Below, piece after piece: positions 2,259 through 62,515 of a DNA stretch of 64,000 nucleotides. Under the pieces are notes generated by a model. That model was not told the DNA's origin and did not search any database. It saw nothing but the letters and a program-made list of their open reading frames with translations. Location of the stretch: the IMG/VR virus record IMGVR_UViG_3300042691_038938; one strand, written 5' to 3'. The position numbers were made by a program, and so were the translations under genes. The DNA comes from a virus. Taxonomy: Duplodnaviria > Caudoviricetes. Position 1 is the first letter of the stretch, and every line of letters begins with the position of its first letter.

Positions 2259-3833
2259 GTGTTAAAGTTTAAGCTCACACCCGACCGTAAATTCATTAAG
2301 CTTGTAGATTTTAATCTCAATATGGAAAGGACTGCGCTCTTTAATTTCTTTAAGAAGAAATCGAAGAAGGCTGCATTCAATGTGCTTGTTGATCGTGGCA
2401 TCTGGGACGGAATGGATCCATTCATCACTAAGAACGGAGAGATCGCAGTTGGTTTATGGAAGGAAATCTATAATTTTTCTGAAAGGAGCGGTTTTGAGTG
2501 TGAGATCGAGGGAGCAGAAGGTTTTGTGAATAAGAACCTAGATAGGGACAAGTATTTAGGATATGTCAAGAACTTATTAGACGGAATAGTCGACGAACGC
2601 GGCAACCCAATCATTCCTCGAGACTATCAGGTAGAAGGAGCATTTAGAGCAATAAAGTATAAGTTCTGTACTCAAGAGTTGGCGACTTCTGCTGGAAAGA
2701 CTCTGATCTTCTATATCTATAACTCATTCCTAAGAGACGGCGGCAAGATCAGTAAGGAGAAAAAGTCACTCATTATTGTGCCGAACATCTCACTAGTCGG
2801 TCAGACTGCCGAAAAGTTCATCATGTACGCCAAGCCTGGAAAGGAGTGGAATGTCTGTTCGATTGGAGGTAAGGATAAGTTCACTCAGGAAAGATTCGAT
2901 CAAGCAGAGATAGTGATATCCACATATCAGAGCTTAGTGAACCTGGATCCTAACCTGTTCAAATCATTCTCAGTCGTGCAAGTGGATGAAGTTCACAAGT
3001 CAAAGGGTAATTCCATTCGGGACATACTGCTCTCTTGTACTAATTGGGAATATCGGTTGGGTCTTTCAGGAACGGTGAAATTAGACGAGCAATTCTCAGA
3101 CTTTTTCAGAGTTCAAGAGAACGTTGGACCACTAGTGATGGTGCTCTCAGCAAAACATCTCATCGATAATGGTTATTCACCTAACATCAAGATCAAGATG
3201 GTGGAGGTGATGTATGATACGACAGACCCTCAGATCCAGAAATACTGGCACCTAAAGTCTACCGGCAAGGACATGTACAAGAATCCCAAGGATTTCGGTA
3301 GGGACATGTTGGCAATCGAAAAGGGAATCATCTTTGAGAGCAAGGAAAGATTAGATTTCATTAGCGATCTAGTAAGAAAGTTTGAAAAGAACTCTCTCAT
3401 ACTCTTTTCAGACGTAAAGAACGGCTATGGCAAACTGATCCAGTCAAAGTTACTTGAGTGGAATCCGGATACTTTTTACATCGACGGTGAGGTAGACTCA
3501 CTTGATCGAGACAAGTTTAAGGATATATTGGAATCTAAGGACGGAGTGGTGATAGTAGCGTCGTATGGAACCTTTGCTACTGGAATCGATTCCAAGAACC
3601 TGCACCACATCATACTCGCAGAGTCAACTAAGGCCGAGGTTACTCTTCGACAAGCGATAGGCCGAGGTATGCGAAAGCTCGCGGAAAAGACTAATGTGAT
3701 GGTTTGGGATCTAGTCGATCAGCTAGATGGATATTCAGTAAAGCATTCAAAGGTAAGAAAGGAGATCTATCAAGAACAGAAGTTTGAGATATCTAAGAGT
3801 CAAGTAGACTTAACAAAAAAGCGATCTGAGTAG
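2259..3833 (+). CDS. uvsW: SF2 helicase UvsW
   Basis: PRDYQ, LATSAGKT (I), VDEVH (II), GLSGT (III), SYGTFATGID (V), QAIGRGMR (VI). Confidence 0.9.
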   Translation: MLKFKLTPDRKFIKLVDFNLNMERTALFNFFKKKSKKAAFNVLVDRGIWDGMDPFITKNGEIAVGLWKEIYNFSERSGFECEIEGAEGFVNKNLDRDKYLGYVKNLLDGIVDERGNPIIPRDYQVEGAFRAIKYKFCTQELATSAGKTLIFYIYNSFLRDGGKISKEKKSLIIVPNISLVGQTAEKFIMYAKPGKEWNVCSIGGKDKFTQERFDQAEIVISTYQSLVNLDPNLFKSFSVVQVDEVHKSKGNSIRDILLSCTNWEYRLGLSGTVKLDEQFSDFFRVQENVGPLVMVLSAKHLIDNGYSPNIKIKMVEVMYDTTDPQIQKYWHLKSTGKDMYKNPKDFGRDMLAIEKGIIFESKERLDFISDLVRKFEKNSLILFSDVKNGYGKLIQSKLLEWNPDTFYIDGEVDSLDRDKFKDILESKDGVVIVASYGTFATGIDSKNLHHIILAESTKAEVTLRQAIGRGMRKLAEKTNVMVWDLVDQLDGYSVKHSKVRKEIYQEQKFEISKSQVDLTKKRSE

Positions 3834-4222: not shown

Positions 4223-4987
4223 TTATTTATTTAGCTTCTCAGCATTTTCAATCTTTTCAAAAACTTTTTCTATCTTCTTGATTATAGGGTGCCGAACGAT
4301 ATCATCAGTCGATAGCCGAGCCATACCAATCTCCTCAATCTCCACGAAATATTCCATCAAGATCTCAAGCGCGCTCTTTTGATTCTTATTAACTGACTTT
4401 TGCTTGATGTCTCCTAAGAAGACCATCTTTGAATTCATTCCGATCCTGGTGATTAGAGTATGCAGGTGATCCTTTGCGATCTGCTGAGCCTCATCTATCA
4501 AGATGATTGAATCGTCTAACGTGACTCCTAGAGCAAACTTTATCGGCAGGATCTCGATCTTTCCGGCCGCCTTAAGAAACTCGGTCGCAGGCTTGCCAAT
4601 CACTTTATGAAAGTTAGAGATGAATGGATACATGTACATCTCCATCTTCTCCTCAAGAGTTCCCTTTAAGTAACCTATCTCCTCGTCCTTAGGAACGTTG
4701 ACTGACTTTATTAGGATGATCTTTTTATAGGTTCCTGGATCGTCCTTTAAGTACTTGAGAGCTCTAGCGCAAGAGAGGTATGTCTTACCCGTCCCTGGAG
4801 GACCTGTCACTATCGATATATCGTGATTCTCAATGGCGTTTATTGCATCCTTTTGTGCCTTTGATCTACATTTTATGTCTATCCTTTCGTTAAAATTCTT
4901 TGAAGTCTCAATCGCTTCTCTCTCCTTGGACCACAGGTCAAAGTCTTCTTGTTCTTCCTTGTTTAGTTGATTCTTTTTTCTTGCCAT
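4223..4987 (-). CDS. phoH: PhoH-family ATPase
   Basis: GPPGTGKTYL, IGYLKGTLEEKM, IDEAQ, FLGDIKQ, DIVRHP. Confidence 0.9.
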   Translation of the reverse strand: MARKKNQLNKEEQEDFDLWSKEREAIETSKNFNERIDIKCRSKAQKDAINAIENHDISIVTGPPGTGKTYLSCARALKYLKDDPGTYKKIILIKSVNVPKDEEIGYLKGTLEEKMEMYMYPFISNFHKVIGKPATEFLKAAGKIEILPIKFALGVTLDDSIILIDEAQQIAKDHLHTLITRIGMNSKMVFLGDIKQKSVNKNQKSALEILMEYFVEIEEIGMARLSTDDIVRHPIIKKIEKVFEKIENAEKLNK

Positions 4988-5734: not shown

Positions 5735-7168
5735 ATGGAGGACAAATCAAAGAAAATAAAAAAGCTGGATCTAAAGCAGAATGCGATCAAGATCCTAATT
5801 AACTCGATATACGGAGCATTCGGTAACAAGTGGTTCTATTTTTACAATCCGGATATCGCTCAATCGATCACCCTTCAGGGTCAAGACCTAATAAAGTTCT
5901 CCATCAAGGCTGTGAATCACTATTTTCAAGAGAGATGGCACCTCGATAAGGAGCTGCACAGTCTACTTGGACTTGATGGATATACTATAAACAAGATAGA
6001 TGATGTCGCAGCGATCTATACTGACACTGACTCGATCTATGTACAGTTTGACTCTGCGATAGATTCGATAATCGGTGCAAACTTCACAAAGGAAGAGATC
6101 CTTAACATCTGTATCAATATCGACAAACATCGACTCTCTAGTTATTTCGACCAGTGTTTCGAAAGATACGGAAAGATATTCAATACGAAGAACCGACTTA
6201 AATTCAAATTGGAAAACCTTTCTGAACACGGAATCTGGTTAAAGAAGAAGAACTATGCTATTCGAGTGGCATATGAACCCAATCCTAGCTATGAGACTAT
6301 TCCTCAAGAGAAGAGATACCTTGTGATCAAGGGTCTCGAATCCATCAAGGGATCGTATCCAATCTGGGCCAGAAAAAAGCTTGAATCGCTTTACTCATTT
6401 ATTCTAAATCGAGGTAAACGTCTCGACATTGAGAAGGACATCATTCCGACTCTTCTTGAGATCAAGAAAGAGTTCATGAGCCTGCATCCAGACGAGCTTG
6501 CATTCAACTATAAGATTAGGGTCTATAATAAATACGTAGCGAGTGAGGCTAAGCTCGACTTAAAGAAGGGCATATCAATATTCCCAAGAGCAGCTGCCAT
6601 CTACAATCACACTCTAATCAAGACCAGTCTGACTGATCGCTATCCAAAGTTGAGAGAAGGTGACAAGATCAAGTTTTATTACTGTAATCCTGAAGAGAAT
6701 GACGGTGGATTTGACGTGTTCGCCTATTCTCCAGGTTCTTATCCTGATGAAATCGTTCCCAAGATGGACATGAATCTGCAGTTCTTCTCACTAATCGTCG
6801 AACCCATCAATAGGTTTCTTTTTGCGATGAACCTAGGTCAACTCGATCAAAACTTAAAAAGAGCAATTGAAGTGGTCACGATCAAGAGCAAGAAAGTTCT
6901 ATCTCAAAACCTAACTCATCCTCTCTTTGTAGTAGATCAAGCTAGTCTACAATACGAGCCTGTGCCCGAGAAGTTTTGGACAACTATTGGTAATCCAGAG
7001 AAGGAGGTCGAGACGCAAGACTTTCAAGAATATCTTAGCGTCATTACTCGATATGGTCTAAACTCAGTAATAGTCCCAGAGCCAGAGCTTGAAAAGTACA
7101 TCAAGCGTCTCTCTAAAAAGAAGGAAAAGGTAGAGTCTGAACTTGAGGTAGAGGAAGAAAATGTTTGA
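5735..7168 (+). CDS. Family-B DNA polymerase, C-terminal subunit (gp43B-like)
   Basis: Motif B KILINSIYGAFG, motif C YTDTDS, KKKNY, VIKGLE; no exonuclease domain or motif A. Confidence 0.9.
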   Translation: MEDKSKKIKKLDLKQNAIKILINSIYGAFGNKWFYFYNPDIAQSITLQGQDLIKFSIKAVNHYFQERWHLDKELHSLLGLDGYTINKIDDVAAIYTDTDSIYVQFDSAIDSIIGANFTKEEILNICINIDKHRLSSYFDQCFERYGKIFNTKNRLKFKLENLSEHGIWLKKKNYAIRVAYEPNPSYETIPQEKRYLVIKGLESIKGSYPIWARKKLESLYSFILNRGKRLDIEKDIIPTLLEIKKEFMSLHPDELAFNYKIRVYNKYVASEAKLDLKKGISIFPRAAAIYNHTLIKTSLTDRYPKLREGDKIKFYYCNPEENDGGFDVFAYSPGSYPDEIVPKMDMNLQFFSLIVEPINRFLFAMNLGQLDQNLKRAIEVVTIKSKKVLSQNLTHPLFVVDQASLQYEPVPEKFWTTIGNPEKEVETQDFQEYLSVITRYGLNSVIVPEPELEKYIKRLSKKKEKVESELEVEEENV

Positions 7169-9843: not shown

Positions 9844-11562
9844 ATGGCAGGATTTTTAGACACAAATGGAAGAAGAGCAGGAAGCGCACTAGCCGGACTC
9901 AGTAAGTTCGGAACTCGACATGAGGATCTTCTTCTTAGAAACTCACAGGCAATAGGATTCATTGAGAGTCAGCTCCAGGCCAGATCAAACAAGATGAGTG
10001 CAAACGACGAACTCTTAAAGTTTTCAATGGCTATTTCTGATACGACATCTCAGCTTCGAACCAAGGCGATCGCCTTCTTTCAACTGGATTATGTTGTGAA
10101 GAGGGAACGACTTAGAGACGTCGCAGCAAACGGCGAGATCGAATTCATTCTTGAGACTATTGTGGATGACATGATCGTGTACGATGATGAGGGCCGATTC
10201 ATATATCCTAAGGACTTGACAGGCAAGATGCTTTATCGAGGAAACACTAAGGAAGAACGTTTAAACTTTCAGGAAGGAGTACTTAATAAGTATAGAGACA
10301 ATTTTGAGAAGATCTCAACTGCTTGGGGATTTAGTGAAGGAATATCTGCATGGCAGTATGCCTTTCAATTCCTAGTCGAAGGACACCTTTCTTTTGAGAT
10401 CATCTACGACGATTTAGACAAACCTAAAGAAGTCATAGGATTCAAAGAATTGGATCCTGCCAGCATTGCTCCACAGTTACAGAAGGATACTAATGGTAAA
10501 GTATTTCTTCAGTGGTTACAATACGACCCAGCTTCAGGTTCTACTCGAGTCCTAAACGATTCACAGGTGATCTATATCTCTTATGCAAACCACTTTAGGA
10601 CCAAGAGAGTCTCCTTTGTTGAGCGACTGATCAGATCATTCAATCTATTAAGAATCATCGAGCACAGTAAAGTTATTTGGCACGTGATGAATGCGCCGAT
10701 TCGCTTGACAACATCAGTTCCTATCGGAAGTAAGAGCTTTCAAAAGGGCCAAGAAGACGTTCGCGAGTTCCTAAACATGTTTAAGGAAGACATTTACTTT
10801 AATGGTGACACTGGAGAGCTTCAAGTTGACGGTAAACCTAATATTCTATTCTATAAGAACTACATCACACCAGTCAACGATCAGCAGCAACAGGTAAAGA
10901 TCGATGTTCTTCAGACTCCTGGACCAAACCTTTCCGGTTCAGAACTTCTTAATTACTTTTATAAGAAATTAAAGATGGACTCCAAGATACCTTACTCTCG
11001 TTGGGAAGGTCAGTCAGGTATGGGTGCATTTACTCTTAATGCTGAGGGTATTACTAGGGAGGAAGTTAGATATCAAAAATTCGTGAATCGATTAAGATCA
11101 GCTTTCTCTGAGCTCATGATCAAGCCATGGTACTTACAGATGTGTTTAGATTTTCCTGAGCTAGCGGATGACTATAAGTTCAACAATGCGATAGGCATAA
11201 CCTACAATAACGATAACGTCTTTGAAGAGATGAAGAAGAACGATATTGAGGCTAAGCGAATCGCATCGTTTACATCTAAGAAAGGAATCTTGAAGGACGA
11301 CGGTACGCCATTCTTCTCCACTCAATACTTGATTAGAGAAGAATTAAAGATGACTGAACCTGAGATTGAAGCTAATCAAAAATGGTTTGACCAAGAGATT
11401 AAGGAAGAGGCTGAAGCAGCAGCAGCCGCTCCACCTGCAGGAGGAGCTCCTCCACCAGCCGGAGGAGGAGGTGCAGCAGCCGCAGCAGGCGGAGCCGCTG
11501 CTGAAGGCGGAGGTTCTGAAGTAGTTGAGGGAGGCGAATCAAAAGGAGCAGGCCAACTTTAA
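9844..11562 (+). CDS. Portal vertex protein (T4 gp20-like)
   Basis: FLVEGHLSFE, YFYKKLKMDSKIPYSR, ITREEVRYQKFVNRLR; Ala/Gly/Pro tail. Confidence 0.9.
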   Translation: MAGFLDTNGRRAGSALAGLSKFGTRHEDLLLRNSQAIGFIESQLQARSNKMSANDELLKFSMAISDTTSQLRTKAIAFFQLDYVVKRERLRDVAANGEIEFILETIVDDMIVYDDEGRFIYPKDLTGKMLYRGNTKEERLNFQEGVLNKYRDNFEKISTAWGFSEGISAWQYAFQFLVEGHLSFEIIYDDLDKPKEVIGFKELDPASIAPQLQKDTNGKVFLQWLQYDPASGSTRVLNDSQVIYISYANHFRTKRVSFVERLIRSFNLLRIIEHSKVIWHVMNAPIRLTTSVPIGSKSFQKGQEDVREFLNMFKEDIYFNGDTGELQVDGKPNILFYKNYITPVNDQQQQVKIDVLQTPGPNLSGSELLNYFYKKLKMDSKIPYSRWEGQSGMGAFTLNAEGITREEVRYQKFVNRLRSAFSELMIKPWYLQMCLDFPELADDYKFNNAIGITYNNDNVFEEMKKNDIEAKRIASFTSKKGILKDDGTPFFSTQYLIREELKMTEPEIEANQKWFDQEIKEEAEAAAAAPPAGGAPPPAGGGGAAAAAGGAAAEGGGSEVVEGGESKGAGQL

Positions 11563-28039: not shown

Positions 28040-28741
28040 TTAAATCTTTATTTTATATGCAGTCGTTTTTGCCACTCCCTTTAGGTTTCTTAGAGGTTCG
28101 CAAGAGTGTAACTGTAATTCTGAAAGAAGTCTACCGCTTCTTCTACGTTTACCCTCATAACATCTCTGCTGATAGTCAATGATCTCTAATTTACGACTCT
28201 TCTTAGAAACTAGATCCTCTATCCTTTTCTCCTCCTCTTTAGGTAGAGCTTCAGTAAAGCTAAAGGTCACGTTTCCAGGTTCAGAAACAGTCGACTCCAT
28301 TCGAGAAGCAGTGTTTACCGTGTTACCGAAGAAGTCCCATAGTTTTTTACCTTGGATGTCTGTCTGCTTTTTATATAGAGGTCCCCAGCAGATCCCAAGT
28401 CGAATCGTCATGTTCTTATCCTTAATCTTGATAGGGTTATTCTTAAGGTCCTCCTGTATCTCCATGCCTGCCTCTACCGCTCTTAGTAAGGAGTCCTTGC
28501 CCTCGAAGCTGACCATGTAACTATCACCGATAGTCTTTACGATCATGCCCTTGAACTTTGTGACCACCTTTGTCATTCGCTTATTGTGCTCTTCAAGAGC
28601 ATTGAACATGCCAGACTGATGTAGCTTCCAAAGCTTAGAGCTTGACTTAACGTCAGTGAACAGGATCGCCTGCTCCTTCTCTTCAAGTTTCTTTAGAGAG
28701 TCAATGCTCTCCCAGATAGGATAAGATACTAAGTATTTCAT
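28040..28741 (-). CDS. Class III adenylate cyclase with CTS-like N-terminus
   Basis: ILFTDVKSS, VKTIGDSYM, IRLGICWGP, WDFFGNTVNTASRME. Confidence 0.9.
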   Translation of the reverse strand: MKYLVSYPIWESIDSLKKLEEKEQAILFTDVKSSSKLWKLHQSGMFNALEEHNKRMTKVVTKFKGMIVKTIGDSYMVSFEGKDSLLRAVEAGMEIQEDLKNNPIKIKDKNMTIRLGICWGPLYKKQTDIQGKKLWDFFGNTVNTASRMESTVSEPGNVTFSFTEALPKEEEKRIEDLVSKKSRKLEIIDYQQRCYEGKRRRSGRLLSELQLHSCEPLRNLKGVAKTTAYKIKI

Positions 28742-43763: not shown

Positions 43764-44231
43764 TTAGTTATATTTATCAGGTCTCCATACTGGCACGTTT
43801 TCAACTCCATCGGGTATCCTATAACGTTTAGAAAAATGGGGCAGCTCATGCACGATGGACCTAGCGTCAATGCTGTGACCCTTCCTGGAGAGCACGTTCT
43901 CTATGCACTGTTCCGGATCATTGCTAAACCAGATCTCTCTTAAATCGACTCCTTCCAACTCAGCTAGACCCTGCCTAAGCTTCTCCCCTAGACCGATAAG
44001 AGTATAATCCTCAAAGTAGGGAGAGGCCAAGATCACGTGCTCTCCACTCTGCAAGGCTGATACTATCTCTTCAACGCTAGCAGAATCGTCGAAGACTCTC
44101 CACTCAAGATCGCTATCACTAATGATCTCACGTATGAGATGACTCTTACCCGAACCAGGTAGACCGTGTATCCAGACCATTGAAACCTTCGATCTGTTCT
44201 CAAATAATGAATATGATACTATGTGCTTCAT
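43764..44231 (-). CDS. P-loop kinase (PNK/AAA_33-like) with CTS-like N-terminus
   Basis: WIHGLPGSGKS; MKHIVSYSLFE; TATAAATA 44254-44261. Confidence 0.7.
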   Translation of the reverse strand: MKHIVSYSLFENRSKVSMVWIHGLPGSGKSHLIREIISDSDLEWRVFDDSASVEEIVSALQSGEHVILASPYFEDYTLIGLGEKLRQGLAELEGVDLREIWFSNDPEQCIENVLSRKGHSIDARSIVHELPHFSKRYRIPDGVENVPVWRPDKYN

Positions 44232-44529
44232 GCTATAGTTAGTTCTTTAGTTATATTTATACTACGGAGTCCGGCCACCAGTGACCAAGATACCCAGAAA
44301 CCAGGACAAAGAGAAATGGGAAGAGAGTCTCTAGACAGGAGACCCAACATCATAGATAGCCCATGGCCAGGAGCGTAGATCCTAGAGACCAGACACGATA
44401 CCAACGACCTACCGCCAGACCAGCCAAAGGAGCCCAGCTACAGTCGCACCCAGGTAGCCCTTTAGTGAGACGTAATGTGGGAACCACTGCCGACTGGGTC
44501 TACGGAGTCCCATACGGGAAACTCCATGG

Positions 44530-44568
44530 GTGCCACCCTTGTTGCCACGCTTGCTACGTTTGCCATGC
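44530..44568. repeat. Degenerate 9-bp direct repeats
   Basis: GTGCCACCC, then TTGCCACGC TTGCTACGT TTGCCATGC in tandem. Confidence 0.6.
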
Positions 44569-44606
44569 TACTTTCAGTGTGAACCCCTTATGGCAAGCCC
44601 AGGTGT

Positions 44607-44614
44607 GATAAATA
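44607..44614 (+). promoter_or_regulatory. Late-type promoter box GATAAATA
   Basis: 15 nt before ATG 44630. Confidence 0.55.
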
Positions 44615-44629
44615 ATAAGAAAGGGTAAC

Positions 44630-45322
44630 ATGTACGTAAAGGAGGTAATGGCAACCTTGCAATGCAGCTATAACGCCTGCCGCAAGTGGAGGAACGAGGG
44701 TAAGCTAAGGACCACCAAGATGCCCAACGGCAAGGTGATGTACTGGGACGACGACGTCTACGCCCTACTGGGCAAGAAGATCCAGAAGGAGAACTGGTCG
44801 GTCGCCTACTGTAGGGTACCGGGGACTACGGAGTCCGACCGGAGACTCATGCTCCGCCAGCAGCAACTGATCCGGGAGTGGTGTGCCAAGCGTGGAGTGT
44901 CTCTAGAAAAGCTCTACGACGACTGGTGCCCGTCTACTGACTTCTCCATGGACGGGAGACCCGGGTTACATGAGCTCATACAGGATGTCATAAAGAAAAA
45001 GATAAGCGTGATCGTGGTGGAGACCCCGGACAGGCTGGCTCGAGTCGGTTGGGAGATCTTTCCCTCCTGGTTCAAGTATTATGGGGTGGAGGTAATAGTC
45101 ATCAACAGTGCTATAGTGGTGCCAGAGTATCAGCAGGAGCAGGAGAGGGATCTCACGAATCTCTTGTTAAAGGCGGGCGTGGACAGGCTGGATAAGCTAG
45201 GAGCTGAGAGCCTACCGGTACCCAGAAAGCGGGAGAGGCGCAAGCACCCGGGCAAGATCACCCCTGACTGGGAGGACAAGCCAGAGACCCCATCAGATCG
45301 AGACCTGTCAGACCTCATGTAG
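44630..45322 (+). CDS. IS607-type serine recombinase homolog lacking the catalytic Ser
   Basis: N-terminal MerR-like HTH; AYCRVP in place of YARVS; VVETPDRLARVG. Confidence 0.8.
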   Translation: MYVKEVMATLQCSYNACRKWRNEGKLRTTKMPNGKVMYWDDDVYALLGKKIQKENWSVAYCRVPGTTESDRRLMLRQQQLIREWCAKRGVSLEKLYDDWCPSTDFSMDGRPGLHELIQDVIKKKISVIVVETPDRLARVGWEIFPSWFKYYGVEVIVINSAIVVPEYQQEQERDLTNLLLKAGVDRLDKLGAESLPVPRKRERRKHPGKITPDWEDKPETPSDRDLSDLM

Positions 45323-45334
45323 ATAAATATTAGT

Positions 45335-45679
45335 ATGGAAGAAGAATTAAGCCTGTATGGCGCCGGCGTCGAGTGGATCGGCCAGCGTCCCATCAACACG
45401 GTCGGCAACGACTCCCCTGACTGGGAGCTCATGTATGAGCTCTGGCTTAGGGTAAAGGACGAGTCTCCCAAACCGGTCGCGATAGAGAAGACTAGCTTCA
45501 CCGTGACAGCAGTGCAGCGAGTAAGGATCCTGGAGGAACCCGTCGCGGTCGCGCTCTTCTACTCGCTGGACGAGTGGATAGGGGAGGAGGATCCCAGGAA
45601 GGACTTTACCTGGTTCATGGTGGGAGACGGTTTCCTTCGGGAATTGGAGCTCATAAAGGAGTGGGGATTCCGCCTATAA
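45335..45679 (+). CDS. Hypothetical protein
   Basis: GATAAATA 45322-45329 upstream. Confidence 0.7.
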   Translation: MEEELSLYGAGVEWIGQRPINTVGNDSPDWELMYELWLRVKDESPKPVAIEKTSFTVTAVQRVRILEEPVAVALFYSLDEWIGEEDPRKDFTWFMVGDGFLRELELIKEWGFRL

Positions 45680-45701
45680 ATAACTAAAAAATCGAGGAGG
45701 C

Positions 45702-45845
45702 ATGGCAAAGGCGAAAGGGGCTAGCGTTGCCGTGTGGAATCCAAGAGCCAAGACCAAGCGGCCTGGAGTACACGCGAAGTGCAAACGTAGCGCCTCTAAG
45801 AAGAGCAAGAACTGGAAGAAGCCCTATCGCGGACAGGGTCGGTAA
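45702..45845 (+). CDS. 47-aa highly basic peptide (not in ORF track)
   Basis: MAKAKGASVAVWNPRAKTKRPGVHAKCKRSASKKSKNWKKPYRGQGR; TATAAATA 45675-45682 and GAGGAGG upstream. Confidence 0.75.
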   Translation: MAKAKGASVAVWNPRAKTKRPGVHAKCKRSASKKSKNWKKPYRGQGR

Positions 45846-45868
45846 CAGACAACAGTTCTACAGTCTAG

Positions 45869-45895
45869 AAGGGTCTCTTAGGGAGGCCCTTTCTT
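45869..45895 (+). terminator. Probable terminator of the + strand operon
   Basis: AAGGGTCTC-loop-GAGGCCCTT then TCTT. Confidence 0.5.
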
Positions 45896-46044
45896 GCATC
45901 TCATTAGTATCTACCGGTCAGATTAACGAGCCTCGTCCAGGGAAACGGTGTCCCTCTTGGTTGAGCTCCGCGCGCCATGGTAGCCAGGGCTCCCAGAAGT
46001 CTCGGCGGGCAGGGGAACCGGGAGACCCGGCTAGCGGTAGAAAT

Positions 46045-46067
46045 CGGGAGACTCCTCGGGTCTCCCG
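46045..46067. repeat. Perfect inverted pair of the promoter-upstream box
   Basis: CGGGAGAC-N7-GTCTCCCG. Confidence 0.85.
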
Positions 46068-46140
46068 TGTACGGGCACCCGCAGGCGGGTTACGACGCGC
46101 GATACCAGAGACTCCCTACTACGGAGTAAAAGTATGAGCC

Positions 46141-46166
46141 AAAAAAGGGAGCCGTTAAGCTCCCTC
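46141..46166 (-). terminator. Terminator ending the minus-strand array
   Basis: GGGAGC-N6-GCTCCC followed by T6 on -. Confidence 0.75.
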
Positions 46167-46185
46167 TTCTCAAGTCAAACCAACC

Positions 46186-47361
46186 TTACAAGGTCGCGTA
46201 GTCTGCGAACTGTAAGTCATATCCGCTGTTAGCTCCTTTTGCGAAGAGCTGGCCAGCAGCTGCCTTTAATTCGTATTTGTTCTCTAATTCAATTCCCGAG
46301 TTGTTGGATCCCAAGTAGGTCAAGGAGTTCACGACATCCCAGATCGACATGCCCGTTCGGATGAAGCTCTTCTGGCGATCGTTCAGCTTCATTGGGTCCT
46401 GACCCTTTTGCACTATTCTGGCCATGGTATTGTTGTAGCCGTCGAAGTAGTTGCGTTGCACCGCATCGATGAAGTTCTTCTTGAACTGTGGGTCGTCCTC
46501 CTTCACCTTGCGCTGCACGCTTAGCATTGCCTGCTCAACTTCAGTAAGACTCGCTTTAGTGGAGACCGCACGTTCCAATGACTGTTGAAAGCCTAATGGA
46601 ACAAAGTCCGCCTTCTTCATCGCTTCTATGTTGTTAAGGAAGGTACGAATGTCCTCGGCATCTGTGCCTCCTAGACGAAACTTCTCTGCGAAGTTTAGGT
46701 CACGGTTTCCACCGATGGCTCCGCTTCCTAGGCTTACTCGTAACCCATTGGAGCATACTAATCTCTGGTTGTAGGTCTCAATGATGGTGTCACGAGTGGT
46801 CTGCATGATGGAGAAGCCGAACTTAAAGAACTCGTCCTTGCCTGCTCCTGGGAAACCTACCTCGTTTTGATTTAAGAAGTTGATCTCGACCGAGCCGGAG
46901 TAAGGGTTGTGGTCGATGGTCTCTATCATCAGGGAAGGGTGCTCGTTCATGATCTTGCTCGTGATATCGAAGAGCGAGTCGGTGGTCACTCGACGGTAAC
47001 GCTTAGGATCGCAGACGTCGACGATCTCGCGAGTGCTAACGTTCGCTATTAGCAGGACTGAAGCTCCGCCCTGACGCTGACGATAATCGTTTAGTGCGTT
47101 CATCAGTGCTGCAGCAACCTTGCCGTCCTCGTTCTTGATGAACTCTCGAGTAAGGGAGGCGTTCATCTTCATCATGCTCGCTAGCTTGATAAAGAAGTTC
47201 TGAGCCACCTTGACTGGCTGGCCTGACACCTCTATCTGACCCTTAAGGAACGATTGGTCGCTGAGCTTGATCGCTGAGGTAGGCACCTCTTTAGTAGCAA
47301 ACTCGTTGGACACCATCGCCTCGCGAATGGCATCGAATTGTGATTGTGTTACTTCTCTCAT
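46186..47361 (-). CDS. DUF932-like protein
   Basis: YNQRLVCSNGL resembles the DUF932 RxVCxNGL motif. Confidence 0.55.
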   Translation of the reverse strand: MREVTQSQFDAIREAMVSNEFATKEVPTSAIKLSDQSFLKGQIEVSGQPVKVAQNFFIKLASMMKMNASLTREFIKNEDGKVAAALMNALNDYRQRQGGASVLLIANVSTREIVDVCDPKRYRRVTTDSLFDITSKIMNEHPSLMIETIDHNPYSGSVEINFLNQNEVGFPGAGKDEFFKFGFSIMQTTRDTIIETYNQRLVCSNGLRVSLGSGAIGGNRDLNFAEKFRLGGTDAEDIRTFLNNIEAMKKADFVPLGFQQSLERAVSTKASLTEVEQAMLSVQRKVKEDDPQFKKNFIDAVQRNYFDGYNNTMARIVQKGQDPMKLNDRQKSFIRTGMSIWDVVNSLTYLGSNNSGIELENKYELKAAAGQLFAKGANSGYDLQFADYATL

Positions 47362-47426
47362 TGTCTCTTTGTTTTTAGTTGATTTGACTTATTTATATTA
47401 TACTAATTTTCTGGTCTACTTTAAAA
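47362..47426 (-). promoter_or_regulatory. Variant early-type promoter
   Basis: TTTAAA-N17-TATAAT with A-rich leader. Confidence 0.6.
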
Positions 47427-47437
47427 TTTGGGGACGA

Positions 47438-48556
47438 TTAATTTTCGTCGTCCCCTTCGATTTCTACTAGGTCCTGATCCTCCTCTTCTACGGAGTGATC
47501 GTCGAACGTTCTGCCCAAGAAGACCTGCTCAAAGCGTAGGCTCAAGTCCTGCTGACGCAAGGTCTCGACGTTCTCCATTGAGCGTAGCTCCTCGGTCTCA
47601 GCATAGCGTGTAACGTCGTACACCACCTGACCTTCCTCGTTCAGCTTGTAGTAGAGACGTTTGCCCGTACCGCTGCCGCCTCGACGGTTCTTTGAGAACT
47701 CTAGGTAGCGTAGGCCAGTCGAGTCGAAACGGATCTCAACCATTGCCGTAGTTGCATGCTTAAGATATGTAGAACCAACGTACTGCCCTCCCTTCGTCAT
47801 GTGCTGGATGGCCAACACTGCACAGCCGTTCTTCTCTGCCGCATCGATCATCATGTTAGTCATCCACGACTCGGCTTTAGTTGACTTCCAACCATGTACT
47901 TCCTTGAGCTTTACTAACACGTCCTGATAAGAGTCTAAGAGGATGATGTCGTAGTCGCCGTTGAAGGTCTTCTCGAGGACGGGTGCAAGCTGATTAGACT
48001 TCACGTAATCCATGAGCAAGAGTGTGGGCACGCGACCGATGGCAGGGGTCTTACGATAGTAGAACATGATGTCGTTTCTGGTCATCTCGCTGGAGATGTA
48101 TAGGATCCTTGCCTCGGGGTTTTGGTCCACGACAGATGCCAAGAGATCCAGCATGACAGTTGACTTACCGACGCCTGACTCGCCGATGACGATGTTCACA
48201 GTACCGCCGTAGATACCGCCACCTTCCTCATGGTCTGAGAAGAGATCGTCGATCTTTTTGCCTGTACGGAAGAGACCGAAGTTAGGGAACTCCATGTCCT
48301 CCACCCTTACTATCTGAGGCTCTACTACGGAGTGAACTGATGCAGTATGTTCGCTGCGTTCGTAGTGACCCTCGGCCACGATCTTCTTGATGACTCCATT
48401 GAAGAGCCCGTATGAGATCTCCTCGGGCCTTTCACCCGCGTCGAATTCCTGGAACAGGTCCAGTACCTTTGAGCGAGTCGGCACGACTCCTTCGTAAGCG
48501 TCATTAAACCACTGTCTAACGATTTGCTCCTTCTTTCCTCCTGTGATTTCAATCAT
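47438..48556 (-). CDS. RadA/Sms-like RecA-fold ATPase
   Basis: GESGVGKST, LYISSE, ILLDSYQ, QHMTKGGQYVG, KNRRGG; no Zn finger or Lon-like domain. Confidence 0.75.
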   Translation of the reverse strand: MIEITGGKKEQIVRQWFNDAYEGVVPTRSKVLDLFQEFDAGERPEEISYGLFNGVIKKIVAEGHYERSEHTASVHSVVEPQIVRVEDMEFPNFGLFRTGKKIDDLFSDHEEGGGIYGGTVNIVIGESGVGKSTVMLDLLASVVDQNPEARILYISSEMTRNDIMFYYRKTPAIGRVPTLLLMDYVKSNQLAPVLEKTFNGDYDIILLDSYQDVLVKLKEVHGWKSTKAESWMTNMMIDAAEKNGCAVLAIQHMTKGGQYVGSTYLKHATTAMVEIRFDSTGLRYLEFSKNRRGGSGTGKRLYYKLNEEGQVVYDVTRYAETEELRSMENVETLRQQDLSLRFEQVFLGRTFDDHSVEEEDQDLVEIEGDDEN

Positions 48557-54033: not shown

Positions 54034-54195
54034 CTACGGAGTAAAAAGTAAGTAAATCGGCCAGAGAATCAATATCGCCAGCGTCTGTATCGGACCGTTC
54101 ATCTCATATCCCTTGTTACTTAGGTAGAGTAGAGTGGTAAAGCCTGCTGCGGTCCAGAGCAGCAGGCTTAGTATTATGATTATGGTTGTTATCAA
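54034..54195 (-). CDS. Possible 53-aa two-TM peptide (TTG start overlapping the sigma stop)
   Basis: ITTIIIILSLLLWTAAGFTTLLYL...LAILILWPIYLLFTP; its stop lies inside the polar motif. Confidence 0.4.
   Translation of the reverse strand: MITTIIIILSLLLWTAAGFTTLLYLSNKGYEMNGPIQTLAILILWPIYLLFTP
54140..54169 (-). terminator. 11-bp hairpin after the sigma gene
   Basis: AAGCCTGCTGC-N8-GCAGCAGGCTT; short U-tract. Confidence 0.45.
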
Positions 54196-54905
54196 TTGAT
54201 TCGCATTTTTTCTAGCGATGCCTTCACGATCTGGCTGACACGAACGTTTGACATGTCGTAGCGCTCAGCGATCGCATCAGTCGGCATCTCATACTCTCGG
54301 TCTATGCCGAAGTAGTCCATCACGATCAGGCGGTCACGTTCCTTTAGGGAGCTTAAGACCTTCTTTACCTTGAACTTGATGTCGTCGATCTCGATCTCAG
54401 ACTCAGTTTGGGATGGAGAGTGTAGGATGAGGTCGCCTAGAGACGTGCCGCCTTCTTCTCCTACTCGATCGTCGATGTAGGCACGCTTGGGTTCTTCGAC
54501 CTCCTCATGATTCATCTTGGCCTTGTAGATCTCGTATTCCTGGTTGTGAGGCAGTCTCACTATCCGGCCCGTCTTAGCGACTGCTTCGTTAAGTCGTTTA
54601 CGAATCCATAGGCTCGCGTATGAAATGAATCTCTGACCCTCTTTGGGCTTGAAGTTCTTTGCGGCTTCCATCAAGCCGATGTTGCCCTCTTGGATGAGGT
54701 CGTCGATGGGCACTCCTTGACCTATGTGGCGGTTTGCAAGCTTCACCACGAATTTTAGGTTGGCCTGTACGAGCTCGTTAAGTGCCATACGATCTCCCTC
54801 TTGGATTAGTTTTACCAGTTCGATCTCACGATCGTGCGTCACTGGCGTGCTCTTTTGAATAGTACGAAAGTACTTTGGCAAGTTTTCTGAAGTTTCAAAT
54901 CTCAT
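54192..54905 (-). CDS. Sigma70-family factor, Bacteroidota RpoD-like, shortened region 3
   Basis: ANLKFVV, DLIQEGNIGL, RFISYASLWIR, IVRLPHNQ, C-terminal HTH RVSQI. Confidence 0.9.
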   Translation of the reverse strand: MRFETSENLPKYFRTIQKSTPVTHDREIELVKLIQEGDRMALNELVQANLKFVVKLANRHIGQGVPIDDLIQEGNIGLMEAAKNFKPKEGQRFISYASLWIRKRLNEAVAKTGRIVRLPHNQEYEIYKAKMNHEEVEEPKRAYIDDRVGEEGGTSLGDLILHSPSQTESEIEIDDIKFKVKKVLSSLKERDRLIVMDYFGIDREYEMPTDAIAERYDMSNVRVSQIVKASLEKMRIN

Positions 54906-58829: not shown

Positions 58830-59321
58830 TTATAATGGCGGACCTCCGAACCACCATCTACCTCGTTGATATGTTTCACAAGGACCAAGTCGATCTCGAA
58901 TCTCTTGAGTACATTTTGGATTGTTTAGCACGTAATAGCGAATCGCATCGTTCTTCTCATGGCTTAGGATCTCAAGAAGGTTCTCTGGGATCTCCTCATT
59001 TTTTGCGAGCATACGTTTGACGTCGGGCCGATCGTTAATGAGATTGGCTAGGACGTCCGCTGGAGTCGACGGATTTCCTGCGACTCTTGATCGAATCACA
59101 CTGCTTCGATCCTTCGAAAGCTTTCGTAAGACGTCGCTTGGACACGTTCGGTTTTTGGCAACGATATCCTTGAAAGTGGTCGAGCTCAATGACTCCAATG
59201 CCATTGGGTCGGATGTCGTCTCCGCGATGGTGCTTAACCGTACACCCTTGTCGATCGAGGTCAATGTACGATCTCTTTTGATTTTTTTAATTTGGTCTAA
59301 GACGCTCATGTTTTCTTGCAT
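58830..59321 (-). CDS. Leucine-rich-variant (LRV/HEAT-like) repeat protein
   Basis: VAKNRTCPSDVL, VAGNPSTPADVL, LAKNEEIPENLL, VLNNPKC. Confidence 0.75.
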   Translation of the reverse strand: MQENMSVLDQIKKIKRDRTLTSIDKGVRLSTIAETTSDPMALESLSSTTFKDIVAKNRTCPSDVLRKLSKDRSSVIRSRVAGNPSTPADVLANLINDRPDVKRMLAKNEEIPENLLEILSHEKNDAIRYYVLNNPKCTQEIRDRLGPCETYQRGRWWFGGPPL

Positions 59322-59412: not shown

Positions 59413-59943
59413 CTATTTCACAAAGAGCGTGCAATTGGTGTAAGGAAAGGAATGTTCTCCAAGCTTTACCTCAAGCTCCTCGAGGTCGAACCCCATCTCC
59501 TCACAAACAGAAGATATTGTCTCAGGACTAGCTTCATTTGGAACCTGGAACCCGCTCACCTTAAGAAACTTGAGAGCTGCATCTAGCCTAGCTTGCTCCT
59601 CATTAAGGGACTCAACGGTCGTCACCATCGATGCGGTGCCTAGGGGCAGGCTAGAGTAGCGGTTTGCCAGTATCGCAACTGAGAAAGTCTCCGTCTCATC
59701 AGGAACGGTAGGAACTTCAGCTCCCTCAAGGAAATTGAGAAGATCACCTACTTTCTCGACGTCCTCTAATTCTTCAGGAATCTTTACTCCAAACTTTTTC
59801 TCGAGCTTTATGATTACCTCGACGATGTCCAATGCATCCATTCTAAGATCGTCCATTAGGCTCGTGTTCTCGTCGATCTCAGCGCACACTGCATACTCCT
59901 CAACGTGAAGTCTAATTATCTCAAATACTTTTTCTTTTAACAT
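59413..59943 (-). CDS. Acyl-carrier-protein-like domain (Ser to Ala) fused to an unknown domain
   Basis: EKVFEII...DDLRMDALDIVEVIIKLEKKFGVKIPEE...KVGDL. Confidence 0.8.
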   Translation of the reverse strand: MLKEKVFEIIRLHVEEYAVCAEIDENTSLMDDLRMDALDIVEVIIKLEKKFGVKIPEELEDVEKVGDLLNFLEGAEVPTVPDETETFSVAILANRYSSLPLGTASMVTTVESLNEEQARLDAALKFLKVSGFQVPNEASPETISSVCEEMGFDLEELEVKLGEHSFPYTNCTLFVK

Positions 59944-60024
59944 GGTGGTAGGTTTTAAGTTATAAGTAAATATAACTACGATCCCTGAATAAGTACAATC
60001 CTGTGATGGGTAAATTCAGGAGAC
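59944..60024 (-). promoter_or_regulatory. Repeated early-type promoter element 17
   Basis: Same consensus. Confidence 0.85.
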
Positions 60025-60068: not shown

Positions 60069-60091
60069 AAAGGGTCAGCTCCCGCTGACCC
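60069..60091 (-). terminator. Repeated terminator module A
   Basis: GGGTCAGC-GGGA-GCTGACCC-TTTG. Confidence 0.75.
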
Positions 60092-60115
60092 CAGTCTCTA
60101 ACCTAAAACAACTTC

Positions 60116-60318: not shown

Positions 60319-60708
60319 TTATTTAAAGAGTGCAATTATCTTATTCTCAAGCTCACGATCGAACGCGATATCATTATTACAATCGTCATCGAACTCGTGA
60401 CTAACACATCCCGCTAAGAGGTCGAGAGCGTTTGATTCCATCTCCACTCCTTCCTCGTCCTCCCACTCGAAGTTGAAGAAGTCTCTAGAATCTCCATGCA
60501 CCACCACATCGATGGTCCCATCCTCGCGTACCCTCCATGCAGGATAGTGACTATTAAGAACGAACTCTAGTGCTTCAGCCTCAGCATCACTCTCGCACTG
60601 CTCTTCCCAATTGGCAATGAAGCTATTGACATGATTGGTGATGGCAACGTACAGTGCACTGTCGATCTTCTCTACCTCATTGTCGTTAAGAAACCTTTGA
60701 TTTGTCAT
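60319..60708 (-). CDS. Acidic hypothetical protein
   Basis: 129 aa. Confidence 0.7.
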   Translation of the reverse strand: MTNQRFLNDNEVEKIDSALYVAITNHVNSFIANWEEQCESDAEAEALEFVLNSHYPAWRVREDGTIDVVVHGDSRDFFNFEWEDEEGVEMESNALDLLAGCVSHEFDDDCNNDIAFDRELENKIIALFK

Positions 60709-60850: not shown

Positions 60851-61375
60851 CTATCCTATCTTGCTCGCTATCTGCCTCACCTTGTTGACGTAATCGGGAT
60901 CCCCTGCGTAATTCTTTTTGAGGTACTGCAAGTATTCTTCTCTCGTCTTACACTTTTTCGTGTAGGCAGCCTGGAAGAGCGCGTAGTCCATGACGCTATG
61001 CTGCCACGACTCGTACTTTGCGTGACCCTTGTATTCTCCTATCGCGGTCGTGGGTCGCTGCCTTGCCACCTTCATGCCGAAGAGGTTATTACCGTTCCTA
61101 AAGATGTTAGAGGTGAATCGCCCAGTCTCGACTATTGCTTGAGCGTAGACGATGTCATAGTACTTGACTCTCATCTCCTTCAGGGTCTCTAGAAGCTTTT
61201 CCTTGCTGAAGCTCGGATCGACTGGTTTTACGGGTTCTACTCGAGCGACTCTCTCTAACTTGAGACCCGATACTTCAGGTTTCTTTAAGAACGACAGCGA
61301 GATGATGAGTCCAAAGCAGACTCCGGTAAATCCATAAAGCAATCTTTTAAACGGTTCCATGTTTACTGTTTCCAT
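60851..61375 (-). CDS. Membrane-anchored GH73-like glucosaminidase
   Basis: TM LLYGFTGVCFGLIISLSFL; AQAIVETG, NNLFGMK, YAGDPDY; start moved to METVNM. Confidence 0.8.
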   Translation of the reverse strand: METVNMEPFKRLLYGFTGVCFGLIISLSFLKKPEVSGLKLERVARVEPVKPVDPSFSKEKLLETLKEMRVKYYDIVYAQAIVETGRFTSNIFRNGNNLFGMKVARQRPTTAIGEYKGHAKYESWQHSVMDYALFQAAYTKKCKTREEYLQYLKKNYAGDPDYVNKVRQIASKIG

Positions 61376-61456
61376 CTTTTTTGTTTTTAAGTTATGGTTA
61401 AATATAACCATTATCTTTGGATAAGTACAATCCTAGTTGCAGAAAAACTGGGAGAC
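61376..61456 (-). promoter_or_regulatory. Repeated early-type promoter element 19
   Basis: Same consensus. Confidence 0.85.
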
Positions 61457-62260: not shown

Positions 62261-62515
62261 CTATAGGTTTGAGAGGAAGATTTCCTGGTTCACTGAAACG
62301 CTTCTCCACGACTGTTTCTCAAGATCGAAGAAGGTGACCTGCCGAGGAGAGCTCTCTCGCACTCCCTTAGGGTGGTGGTCGCTAGGAATGGTGGTAAGGT
62401 TGGTCGTACCTACCGCGGTACGCAAGGTCCCGTCTAGTTTCTTGAATGCGAACTGCACTGCTCCGCTTCTCAATCTCTGACGCAATACTTCTGGTGAAAT
62501 CGGCTCTAATACCAT
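62261..62515 (-). CDS. SH3-like beta-barrel (WYL_2/DUF2693-like) protein
   Basis: FAFKKLDGTLRTAVGT...FFDLEKQSWRSV. Confidence 0.75.
   Translation of the reverse strand: MVLEPISPEVLRQRLRSGAVQFAFKKLDGTLRTAVGTTNLTTIPSDHHPKGVRESSPRQVTFFDLEKQSWRSVSVNQEIFLSNL

What the first reader, a model, noticed from the sequence alone, without database searches (positions are those of the whole stretch)
59413..59943. Acyl-carrier-protein mimic that cannot be phosphopantetheinylated
Seen: a clear ACP sequence, but the DSL motif reads DAL (codon GCA), fused to about 95 aa of unknown function and placed behind an early-type promoter. Known: the Ser carries the prosthetic group, and ACP is also a protein partner of SpoT and MukB. 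Inference: a permanent apo-ACP decoy that could inhibit AcpS or lipid synthesis, alter (p)ppGpp control, or titrate an ACP-dependent defence protein.
Basis: partly seen in the sequence, partly recalled or inferred. Interest (0 to 1): 0.7.

Follow-up and report, generated by a model that had tools for sequence, protein, structure and literature searches.

The report
Serine-less acyl carrier look-alike, phage
An uncultured T4-like phage makes a two-part early protein whose front half is a copy of the bacterial acyl carrier protein without the serine that holds its cofactor, so it most likely works by docking onto other proteins, but its partner is unknown.

Summary
Window 59413-59943 (-) encodes a 176-aa protein. 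Residues 1-77 are an AcpP-type acyl carrier fold (Pfam PP-binding 27.8 bits; Foldseek TM 0.88 to solved ACPs), and Ala37 (GCA) sits exactly where the phosphopantetheine serine belongs.

It is not a sequencing error. Four independently sampled relatives carry Ala, three of them confirmed as the GCA codon. Homologs with the same architecture at 75-81% identity keep Ser. A sister fusion has Gln, and more distant fusions have Ser. A tree puts Ser as ancestral and lost twice.

Within the Ala clade the ACP module stays under purifying selection (dN/dS 0.11-0.17). The acidic docking residues of helices II/III are invariant.

The C-terminal 97 aa (domain Y) is an orphan alpha/beta domain that stands alone in other phages. 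Relatives fuse the same ACP module to two unrelated domains, one of which (X) is a separate gene 400 bp upstream here.

Best reading: a cofactor-independent docking module carrying swappable partners for early host takeover. The target is untested.

Earlier notes of this scan, which I did not check, report serine-less ACP look-alikes in several other phages.

The parts
59413..59943 (-). Gene for the 176-aa two-domain protein (ACP-like module + domain Y), stop codon included
   Evidence: intact homologs at 81-91% identity in independent metagenomes
59713..59943 (-). Residues 1-77: AcpP-type four-helix acyl carrier fold
   Evidence: Pfam PP-binding 27.8 bits; PDB ACPs at E 2e-8; Foldseek TM 0.79-0.88; TIGR00517 41.8 bits, below the 70.45 cut-off
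59833..59835 (-). Codon 37, GCA = Ala, at the position of the phosphopantetheine-bearing Ser of the DSL motif
   Evidence: the same GCA in L006 and L007, TCG in L008/L009 and L002, TCA in L001, CAA in L003
59695..59712 (-). Linker (residues 78-83, ..VPTVPDE..) and recombination junction. DNA identity to the ACP-Z gene of L003 stops abruptly here
   Evidence: (DNA alignment)
59416..59694 (-). Residues 84-176: domain Y, an orphan beta-beta-alpha-alpha-beta-beta domain. It stands alone (93-105 aa) in other phages
   Evidence: model pLDDT 82.7; no fold match; stand-alone homologs P0007, P0015, P0017; dN/dS 0.09-0.25
59944..60024 (-). This gene's own copy of the repeated promoter element (GTCTCC box, GGATTGTAC, TTATAT, short leader without a Shine-Dalgarno sequence)
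60071..60092 (-). Terminator-like hairpin that closes the upstream 64-aa gene and so isolates the ACP-Y unit
60319..60708 (-). Stand-alone domain X (129 aa). In relatives it is fused behind the same ACP module
   Evidence: 48% identity, E 4e-40 to residues 111-234 of P0011; alignment A4

Best explanation
This is a real, expressed-looking early gene of an uncultured T4-like phage. Its N-terminal 77 residues descend from a fatty-acid-type acyl carrier protein (AcpP). They no longer serve as a carrier: Ala37 replaces the serine that must bear 4'-phosphopantetheine. The module is kept for its surface. It retains the acidic residues of helix II and helix III through which AcpP docks onto its many client enzymes. 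I propose that it docks, without a cofactor, onto a protein that normally binds ACP. In doing so it either blocks that protein or brings the fused C-terminal domain (Y here; X or Z in relatives) to it during early host takeover.

Shown: the fold, the missing Ser, its fixation and purifying selection, the two independent Ser losses, the swapping of C-terminal domains at the linker, and the promoter copy.

Inferred: the docking itself, the target (host AcpS, a glycerol-phosphate or lipid A acyltransferase, or another ACP client) and the timing.
For: Fold and motif.

The Ala is genuine. The proteins of the window, P0002, P0003, P0004 and P0014 all read DAL, and GCA is confirmed in three DNAs. P0014 departs from the family after residue 43.

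Ser was ancestral and was lost twice. In a codon tree the Ala clade has UFBoot 98. It is sister to a Ser-bearing ACP-Y (75). Next out is the Gln-bearing ACP-Z (71), then the Ser-bearing ACP-X fusions, with a stand-alone phage ACP as outgroup.

The Ser-less module is still constrained: dN/dS is 0.11-0.17 at dS 0.23-0.50 inside the Ala clade, no higher than between Ser-bearing members at 0.16-0.25.

D36, L38, D39, E42, E48, F51, I55, P56, E57, L59 and E60 are invariant across all 11 family members whatever residue 37 is. By established knowledge of AcpP, these positions correspond to the recognition helix II and helix III contacts.

Helix II (VEVIIKLEKKF) resembles cellular ACPs of Bacteroidales and Spirochaetes (VELIMELEKKF).

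The module is never found alone. It is fused to three unrelated domains: Y, X and Z. X versus Y gives hhalign probability 0.2. The DNA breakpoint lies at the linker.

The CheckV-complete 140-kb relative G001 has one ACP fusion and no PPTase, ketosynthase, AMP-binding or PlsC-type acyltransferase. Pfam scans of about 90 ORFs of this window found none either.

Precedents: apo-ACP inhibits glycerol-3-phosphate acyltransferase more strongly than holo-ACP and stops E. coli growth (review PMC3896788). Plasmodium mitochondrial ACP works as a pure binding subunit without the cofactor (PMC8547962).
Against: No binding partner was identified or could be tested, because the host is unknown.

Most family members keep Ser, so a carrier role in those cannot be excluded.

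The dN/dS values rest on only 77 codons and a few sequences.

Conservation of helix II may reflect folding constraints as well as docking.

All members of the Y/Z clade have Arg instead of the usual Gly three residues before the Ser position. The consequence of this is unknown.

The full-length model gives no fixed orientation between the two domains (pTM 0.47).
Confidence: 0.5

Rival explanations
1. The ACP module is only an inert structural or solubility scaffold, or an intramolecular partner, for the C-terminal domain. It binds no ACP client, and the activity lies wholly in Y (or X, Z).
For: Y and X also exist as free-standing genes, so they can work without the module. The module tolerates S, A or Q at the key site. 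All the early proteins nearby are similarly acidic.
Against: A mere scaffold would not be expected to keep the AcpP recognition residues invariant over dS above 1. Nor would three unrelated domains be expected to be joined repeatedly to the same module.
Confidence: 0.2
2. The family is a genuine phage acyl or aminoacyl carrier that the host PPTase loads. The Ala and Gln forms are loss-of-carrier variants, tolerated or acting as dominant negatives because the C-terminal domain still works.
For: Ser is ancestral and is kept in most members. Other T4-like phages carry canonical ACPs: L107 has a stand-alone DLGADSL protein, and P-HM1 and P-HM2 have ACP plus ACPS (PMC3037559). The relative G001 encodes a hotdog-fold, YciA-like thioesterase.
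Against: Purifying selection on the ACP module is as strong in the Ser-less clade as elsewhere. Ser was lost twice within a narrow clade. Neither G001 nor this window encodes a PPTase or any acyl-loading or acyl-using enzyme other than that thioesterase.
Confidence: 0.2
3. It is a sequencing or assembly error, or a decaying pseudogene.
For: Homologs at 75-81% identity read DSL. One homolog (P0006) was called as a split gene.
Against: The same GCA codon occurs in the window and in two independent read sets, and two further proteins have Ala. The frames are intact and dN/dS is 0.1-0.2. The 'split' in L002 is only a run of N at a scaffold gap.
Confidence: 0.02

Closest known systems
Bacterial type II fatty-acid acyl carrier protein AcpP (Pfam PF00550, TIGR00517), in particular its apo form
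   Same: It has the four-helix fold (TM up to 0.88), the acidic helix II/III docking residues, and its best family matches are AcpP-type models. Apo-ACP is itself a known growth inhibitor that acts through glycerol-3-phosphate acyltransferase (PMC3896788).
   Different: It has no Ser at the attachment site (Ala37) and Arg instead of Gly at position -3. It scores below every equivalog cut-off (41.8 against 70.45 bits). It is fused to a 97-aa orphan domain, is phage-encoded and sits behind an early-type promoter.
Phage-encoded ACP homologs annotated as auxiliary metabolic genes (PHROG 5934; ACP plus ACPS of Prochlorococcus phages P-HM1 and P-HM2, PMC3037559; Erythrobacter phage vB_EliS-R6L ORF32, PMC5463345)
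   Same: It is an ACP homolog carried by a phage, in a T4-like genome, with function unclear in the literature. It matches PHROG 5934 at E 1.5e-9.
   Different: Those are stand-alone proteins of about 80-93 aa. The ones I read (L107, L109-L112) carry the Ser, and P-HM1/P-HM2 carry their own PPTase. This one lacks the Ser, is always fused, and its relative G001 encodes no PPTase.
Plasmodium falciparum mitochondrial ACP (Falekun et al. 2021, PMC8547962)
   Same: That protein is an ACP that has lost the phosphopantetheine group yet is retained and essential as a pure protein-binding subunit. This is the mode of action proposed here.
   Different: It is eukaryotic and organellar, and its partner is known (Isd11-Nfs1). 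There is no fusion and no allelic Ser/Ala/Gln variation. It is an analogy of mechanism, not homology beyond the ACP fold.
Promoter-bounded early-gene cassettes of T4-type phages (PeSL-type modular shuffling, RB49), as named in earlier notes of this scan
   Same: The gene sits in an array of small co-oriented genes, each behind a copy of one promoter element. Gene content around it differs between relatives.
   Different: Here the exchange point lies inside the coding region, at the inter-domain linker. That produces in-frame domain swaps rather than swaps of whole genes.

Membership tests
Type II acyl carrier protein (PF00550 / AcpP) | Sequence match to PP-binding above the gathering score | tested here: met
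   27.8 bits against a cut-off of 20.8, residues 21-71
Type II acyl carrier protein (PF00550 / AcpP) | Four-helix ACP fold | tested here: met
   AlphaFold model, pLDDT about 80 over residues 1-77. Foldseek to holo-ACPs and apo-ACPs gives TM 0.79-0.88, rmsd 1.3-2.3 A
Type II acyl carrier protein (PF00550 / AcpP) | Conserved Ser of the DSL motif that receives 4'-phosphopantetheine | tested here: not met
   Ala37 (GCA) aligns to the Ser in solved ACPs. The 12 cellular ACPs fetched all have DSL
Type II acyl carrier protein (PF00550 / AcpP) | Score above the NCBIfam equivalog cut-off for AcpP (TIGR00517) | tested here: not met
   41.8 bits against 70.45; no ACP model reaches its cut-off
Type II acyl carrier protein (PF00550 / AcpP) | Acidic recognition helix II/III used to dock on partner enzymes | tested here: met
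   D36, D39, E42, E48, E57 and E60 are invariant in the 11-member alignment A5. Their mapping to E. coli D35, D38, E41, E47, D56/E57 and E60 rests on my knowledge of AcpP
Type II acyl carrier protein (PF00550 / AcpP) | Modification by a PPTase and carriage of acyl chains | not testable with these tools
   This needs mass spectrometry. It is chemically impossible at residue 37. G001 has no PPTase, and none was found in this window
Phage-encoded ACP homologs (PHROG 5934) | Profile match to the PHROG family | tested here: met
   E 1.5e-9, 38.9 bits, residues 8-72
Phage-encoded ACP homologs (PHROG 5934) | Stand-alone small protein with the Ser retained | tested here: not met
   This protein is a 176-aa fusion with Ala37. 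No stand-alone close relative exists among proteins of 30-95 aa. The database phage hits and L107 carry Ser
Cofactor-less ACP acting as a binding subunit (Plasmodium mACP type; functional class, not homology) | Loss of the Ppant site with retention under selection | tested here: met
   dN/dS 0.11-0.17 in the Ala clade
Cofactor-less ACP acting as a binding subunit (Plasmodium mACP type; functional class, not homology) | A demonstrated protein partner | not testable with these tools
   The host is unknown. This needs a pull-down or two-hybrid assay in the host

The most novel reading that the evidence does not exclude
The serine-less AcpP copy is a targeting handle. It docks on the host's ACP-client enzymes (lipid, lipid A or cofactor synthesis) and delivers interchangeable small effector domains (Y, X, Z) to them. 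Phages re-tool this modular host-takeover kit by recombination at the linker. Together with the serine-less ACP look-alikes that this scan noted in unrelated phages, this would make mimicry of the ACP hub a general, undescribed phage strategy.
Probability: 0.2. Interest if true: 0.75.

Novelty: new variant of a known kind. Interest (0 to 1): 0.5.

Why it matters
ACP is one of the most connected proteins in a bacterial cell. A phage protein that copies its docking surface while discarding its chemistry would be a new way of seizing or silencing lipid and envelope synthesis.

This family offers a natural experiment. Ser, Ala and Gln alleles sit in almost identical backgrounds, all under purifying selection, which argues that the cofactor is dispensable for whatever the module does.

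The in-frame swapping of three unrelated C-terminal domains shows how early phage genes build new two-domain proteins.

In practical terms, database annotation of such genes as 'acyl carrier protein' (as JGI names the relatives) is misleading for the Ser-less members.

Tried and rejected
Complex prediction of the ACP module (A5) with stand-alone domain X (A4) gave no verdict (ipSAE 0.00 in both runs). I count it neither for nor against binding.

Fold searches for domain Y found nothing convincing:
- Foldseek against PDB: best E 0.15.
- VIA-align wide: best Z 4.7, among ribosomal, PurS-like and small anti-CRISPR-like alpha/beta proteins, which is within the noise.
- ESM Atlas by shape: TM at most 0.55.
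- BFVD: best E 0.04.

The ESM Atlas search for X gave nothing usable. A full HMMER search for Y against 1.84 billion representatives gave only P0002, two stand-alone relatives and two coiled-coil-like chance hits.

Megablast of the region against GenBank phages found no match. The IMG/VR search with P0001 found none.

The metagenome scan with the ACP alignment was swamped by cellular ACPs and added a single family member, L026. The genome scan returned only ordinary cellular ACPs. It is biased by the search pattern, so it gives only a weak hint about the host.

PADLOC gave no match for the protein or its neighbours. X and Y are not homologous. The 129-aa gene next to Y in marine relatives is not X.

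Sequencing error and pseudogene readings were rejected.

A literature search found no report of a serine-less phage ACP.

Full report
**What is there.** The minus-strand ORF 59413-59943 encodes 176 residues. Residues 21-71 match Pfam PP-binding above the curated cut-off (27.8 against 20.8 bits). They also match PHROG 5934 'acyl carrier protein' (E 1.5e-9). About 100 solved ACP chains match at E down to 2e-8, and in those alignments Ala37 falls on the Ser of the DSL motif. On the + strand, 59833-59835 reads TGC. On the coding strand that is GCA, flanked by GAT and TTG, giving D-A-L. An AlphaFold model (13-row alignment, mean pLDDT 75) gives the four ACP helices. It superposes on holo-ACPs and apo-ACPs at TM 0.79-0.88. 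NCBIfam ranks fatty-acid AcpP models first, but none reaches its equivalog cut-off (TIGR00517 41.8 against 70.45 bits).

**Context.** The window is part of an uncultured T4-like phage:
- T4 gp20-type portal at 9844-11562.
- Family B polymerase at 5735-7168.
- Helicase at 2259-3833.
- PhoH at 4226-4987.
- A sigma-70-like protein at 54192-54905.

No whole genome is held for this window. From about 49 to 64 kb, small co-oriented minus-strand genes each follow a copy of one element: GTCTCC, about 17 nt, GGATTGTAC, about 17 nt, TTATATTTAC, then a short leader without a Shine-Dalgarno sequence. GGATTGTAC occurs 14 times exactly, all on the minus strand between 49100 and 61433. One copy (59944-60024) lies immediately before this gene. 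A terminator-like hairpin (60071-60092) closes the gene upstream. The 'early' timing is inferred from the sigma-70-like hexamers and from the kind of genes present.

**Is the Ala real?** A search of 5.8 billion proteins found 12 relatives, and a search for shorter proteins found one more. Their states at residue 37 are as follows.

| Relatives | Identity or form | Motif |
|---|---|---|
| P0002, P0003, P0004 | 85-91% identical | DAL |
| P0014 | matches only residues 1-43 (98% identical), then departs from the family | DAL |
| P0005, P0006 | 81% and 75% identical, same architecture | DSL |
| P0008 | different C-terminal domain (Z) | DQL |
| P0009-P0013, L001, L026 | 234-238-aa fusions | DSL |

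At the DNA level the codon is GCA in the window, L006 and L007. It is TCG in L008/L009 and L002, TCA in L001, and CAA in L003. The apparent split of P0006 is only a run of N at a scaffold gap.

A codon tree rooted on a stand-alone phage ACP (L107) gives this order:
- The Ala clade (UFBoot 98).
- Its sister, a Ser-bearing ACP-Y (75).
- The Gln-bearing ACP-Z (71).
- The Ser-bearing ACP-X fusions.

Ser is therefore ancestral and was lost twice. It does not indicate an error: the Ala is shared by four independent samples besides the window.

**Is the Ser-less domain still doing something?** Nei-Gojobori estimates for the 77 ACP codons give dN/dS 0.11-0.17 within the Ala clade at dS 0.23-0.50. That is no higher than between Ser-bearing members (0.16-0.25). 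Domain Y gives 0.09-0.25. The numbers rest on few sites but are consistent. Across all 11 family members, D36, L38, D39, E42, E48, F51, V53, I55, P56, E57, L59 and E60 are invariant whatever residue 37 is. By established knowledge of AcpP these are the helix II and helix III positions that contact partner enzymes. Helix II (VEVIIKLEKKF) is close to that of Bacteroidales and Spirochaetes ACPs (VELIMELEKKF). That search was pattern-biased, so it is only a hint about origin or host. Every member of the Y/Z clade has Arg instead of the usual Gly three residues before position 37, including those that keep Ser. This suggests that constraint on the attachment site relaxed before the Ser was lost, which is inference.

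**The rest of the protein, and modularity.** Residues 84-176 (domain Y) fold with confidence (pLDDT 82.7) as beta-beta-alpha-alpha-beta-beta. They match no Pfam family and no solved or predicted fold convincingly. A HMMER scan of 1.84 billion representatives found Y only in this fusion and as free-standing proteins of 93-105 aa in freshwater and marine phage contigs. One contig carries a 238-aa PP-binding protein, probably an ACP-X fusion, followed by a free-standing Y (P0007). The 234-238-aa relatives fuse the same ACP module and linker to domain X. In this window X is a separate 129-aa gene at 60319-60708 (48% identity, E 4e-40). X and Y are unrelated (hhalign probability 0.2). P0008 carries a third domain, Z. 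The DNA identity between the window and L003 is high through the ACP module and stops abruptly after the ...IPDE linker. The C-terminal domains have therefore been exchanged in frame by recombination. No close stand-alone version of the module exists among proteins of 30-95 aa.

**Carrier machinery.** The CheckV-complete 140-kb relative G001 has one PP-binding hit. It has no ACPS-type PPTase, no ketosynthase, no AMP-binding enzyme and no PlsC-type acyltransferase. It does encode a 142-aa hotdog-fold protein with weak YciA likeness, which has no counterpart in this window. Pfam scans of about 90 ORFs of the window show no PPTase or fatty-acid enzyme.

**Interpretation.** The best-supported reading (about 0.5) is that the ACP module works without a cofactor as a docking surface for a protein that normally binds ACP. 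It would act as a competitor, as a handle for the fused domain, or as both.

The precedents are these. Apo-ACP inhibits glycerol-3-phosphate acyltransferase more strongly than holo-ACP and arrests E. coli growth (review PMC3896788). The Plasmodium mitochondrial ACP functions without the Ppant group as a binding subunit (PMC8547962).

- SpoT is unlikely, because it does not bind apo-ACP.
- MukB is unlikely if the host is outside the gamma-proteobacteria (my knowledge; host unverified).
- A defence-system target has no support.
- An AcpS or acyltransferase decoy remains open.

The rivals are an inert scaffold (0.2), a genuine carrier family with loss-of-carrier alleles (0.2), and an artefact (0.02, refuted).

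**Relation to earlier notes of this scan.** Notes on this window describe the promoter array and promoter-mediated gene shuffling. I re-derived the promoter copies and found an in-frame variant of such shuffling. Notes on other genomes report serine-less ACP look-alikes in several unrelated phages. I did not check those. If they hold, this is one more instance of a recurring pattern. It adds the Ser/Ala/Gln allelic series and the domain swapping. I found no published description of a serine-less phage ACP.

**Verdict.** This is a new variant of a known kind (phage ACP homologs), of moderate interest. The decisive experiments are mass spectrometry of the natural Ser alleles and partner identification.

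Noticed in passing
window 60319-60708 (-): A stand-alone 129-aa acidic protein (domain X). In relatives it is fused behind the same ACP module (48% identity to residues 111-234 of P0011). It has no Pfam or fold match. G72 and S74 of a 'HGDS' stretch are invariant in the 8-member alignment.
   Followed up: partly
window 59884-59886 (-), codon 20: Cys20 (..YAVC..) occurs only in the proteins with Ala37 (P0001-P0004, P0014). The Ser and Gln alleles read ..YAEG.. there. This may be linkage or a compensating change; it is unexplained.
   Followed up: no
window 58833-59321 (-): A basic (pI 9.2) 163-aa protein with leucine-rich-repeat-variant repeats (LRV_2, E 1e-9). It is inserted between the ACP gene and a conserved trio of 121-, 104- and 83-aa genes, and it is absent from that position in L002 and L003.
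   Followed up: partly
window 28043-28741 (-): A phage-encoded class III nucleotidyl cyclase domain (Guanylate_cyc, E 9e-23). A cREC_REC 'cyclic-phosphate processing receiver' domain (E 1e-20) is present in another ORF between 1 and 47 kb that I did not pinpoint.
   Followed up: partly
L108 1991-2419 (-) = G001:C1 about 39.5-39.9 kb: The complete 140-kb relative encodes a 142-aa hotdog-fold (4HBT) protein with weak likeness to the acyl-CoA thioesterase YciA. It has no counterpart in this window. It hints that these phages touch host acyl-thioester metabolism.
   Followed up: partly
L107 2989-3225 (+): Another T4-like phage contig (129.7 kb, IMG/VR) carries a canonical stand-alone 78-aa ACP (DLGADSL) just upstream of its family B DNA polymerase. 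Its helix II (VELVMEIENNF) resembles that of the ACP-X fusions, so it is a plausible ancestral form.
   Followed up: partly
L002 about 1000-1040: The 'split' homolog P0006 (139 aa, preceded by a 34-aa ORF) is an artefact of a 10-N scaffold gap inside an otherwise intact Ser-bearing gene.
   Followed up: yes
window 60854-61411 (-) and 62264-62515 (-): The array of small early-type genes also holds a glucosaminidase-domain protein with an N-terminal hydrophobic stretch (PF01832, E 1e-18) and a WYL_2 Sm-like protein (E 5e-18). WYL_2 recurs in the same neighbourhood in freshwater and marine relatives (L003, L004, L011, L012).
   Followed up: no
window 44000-48000: GC content rises to 0.52 in this 4-kb block, against 0.40-0.45 elsewhere. 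The block holds a resolvase-domain protein (44630-45322) and a RecA-fold AAA_25 ATPase (47438-48556).
   Followed up: no
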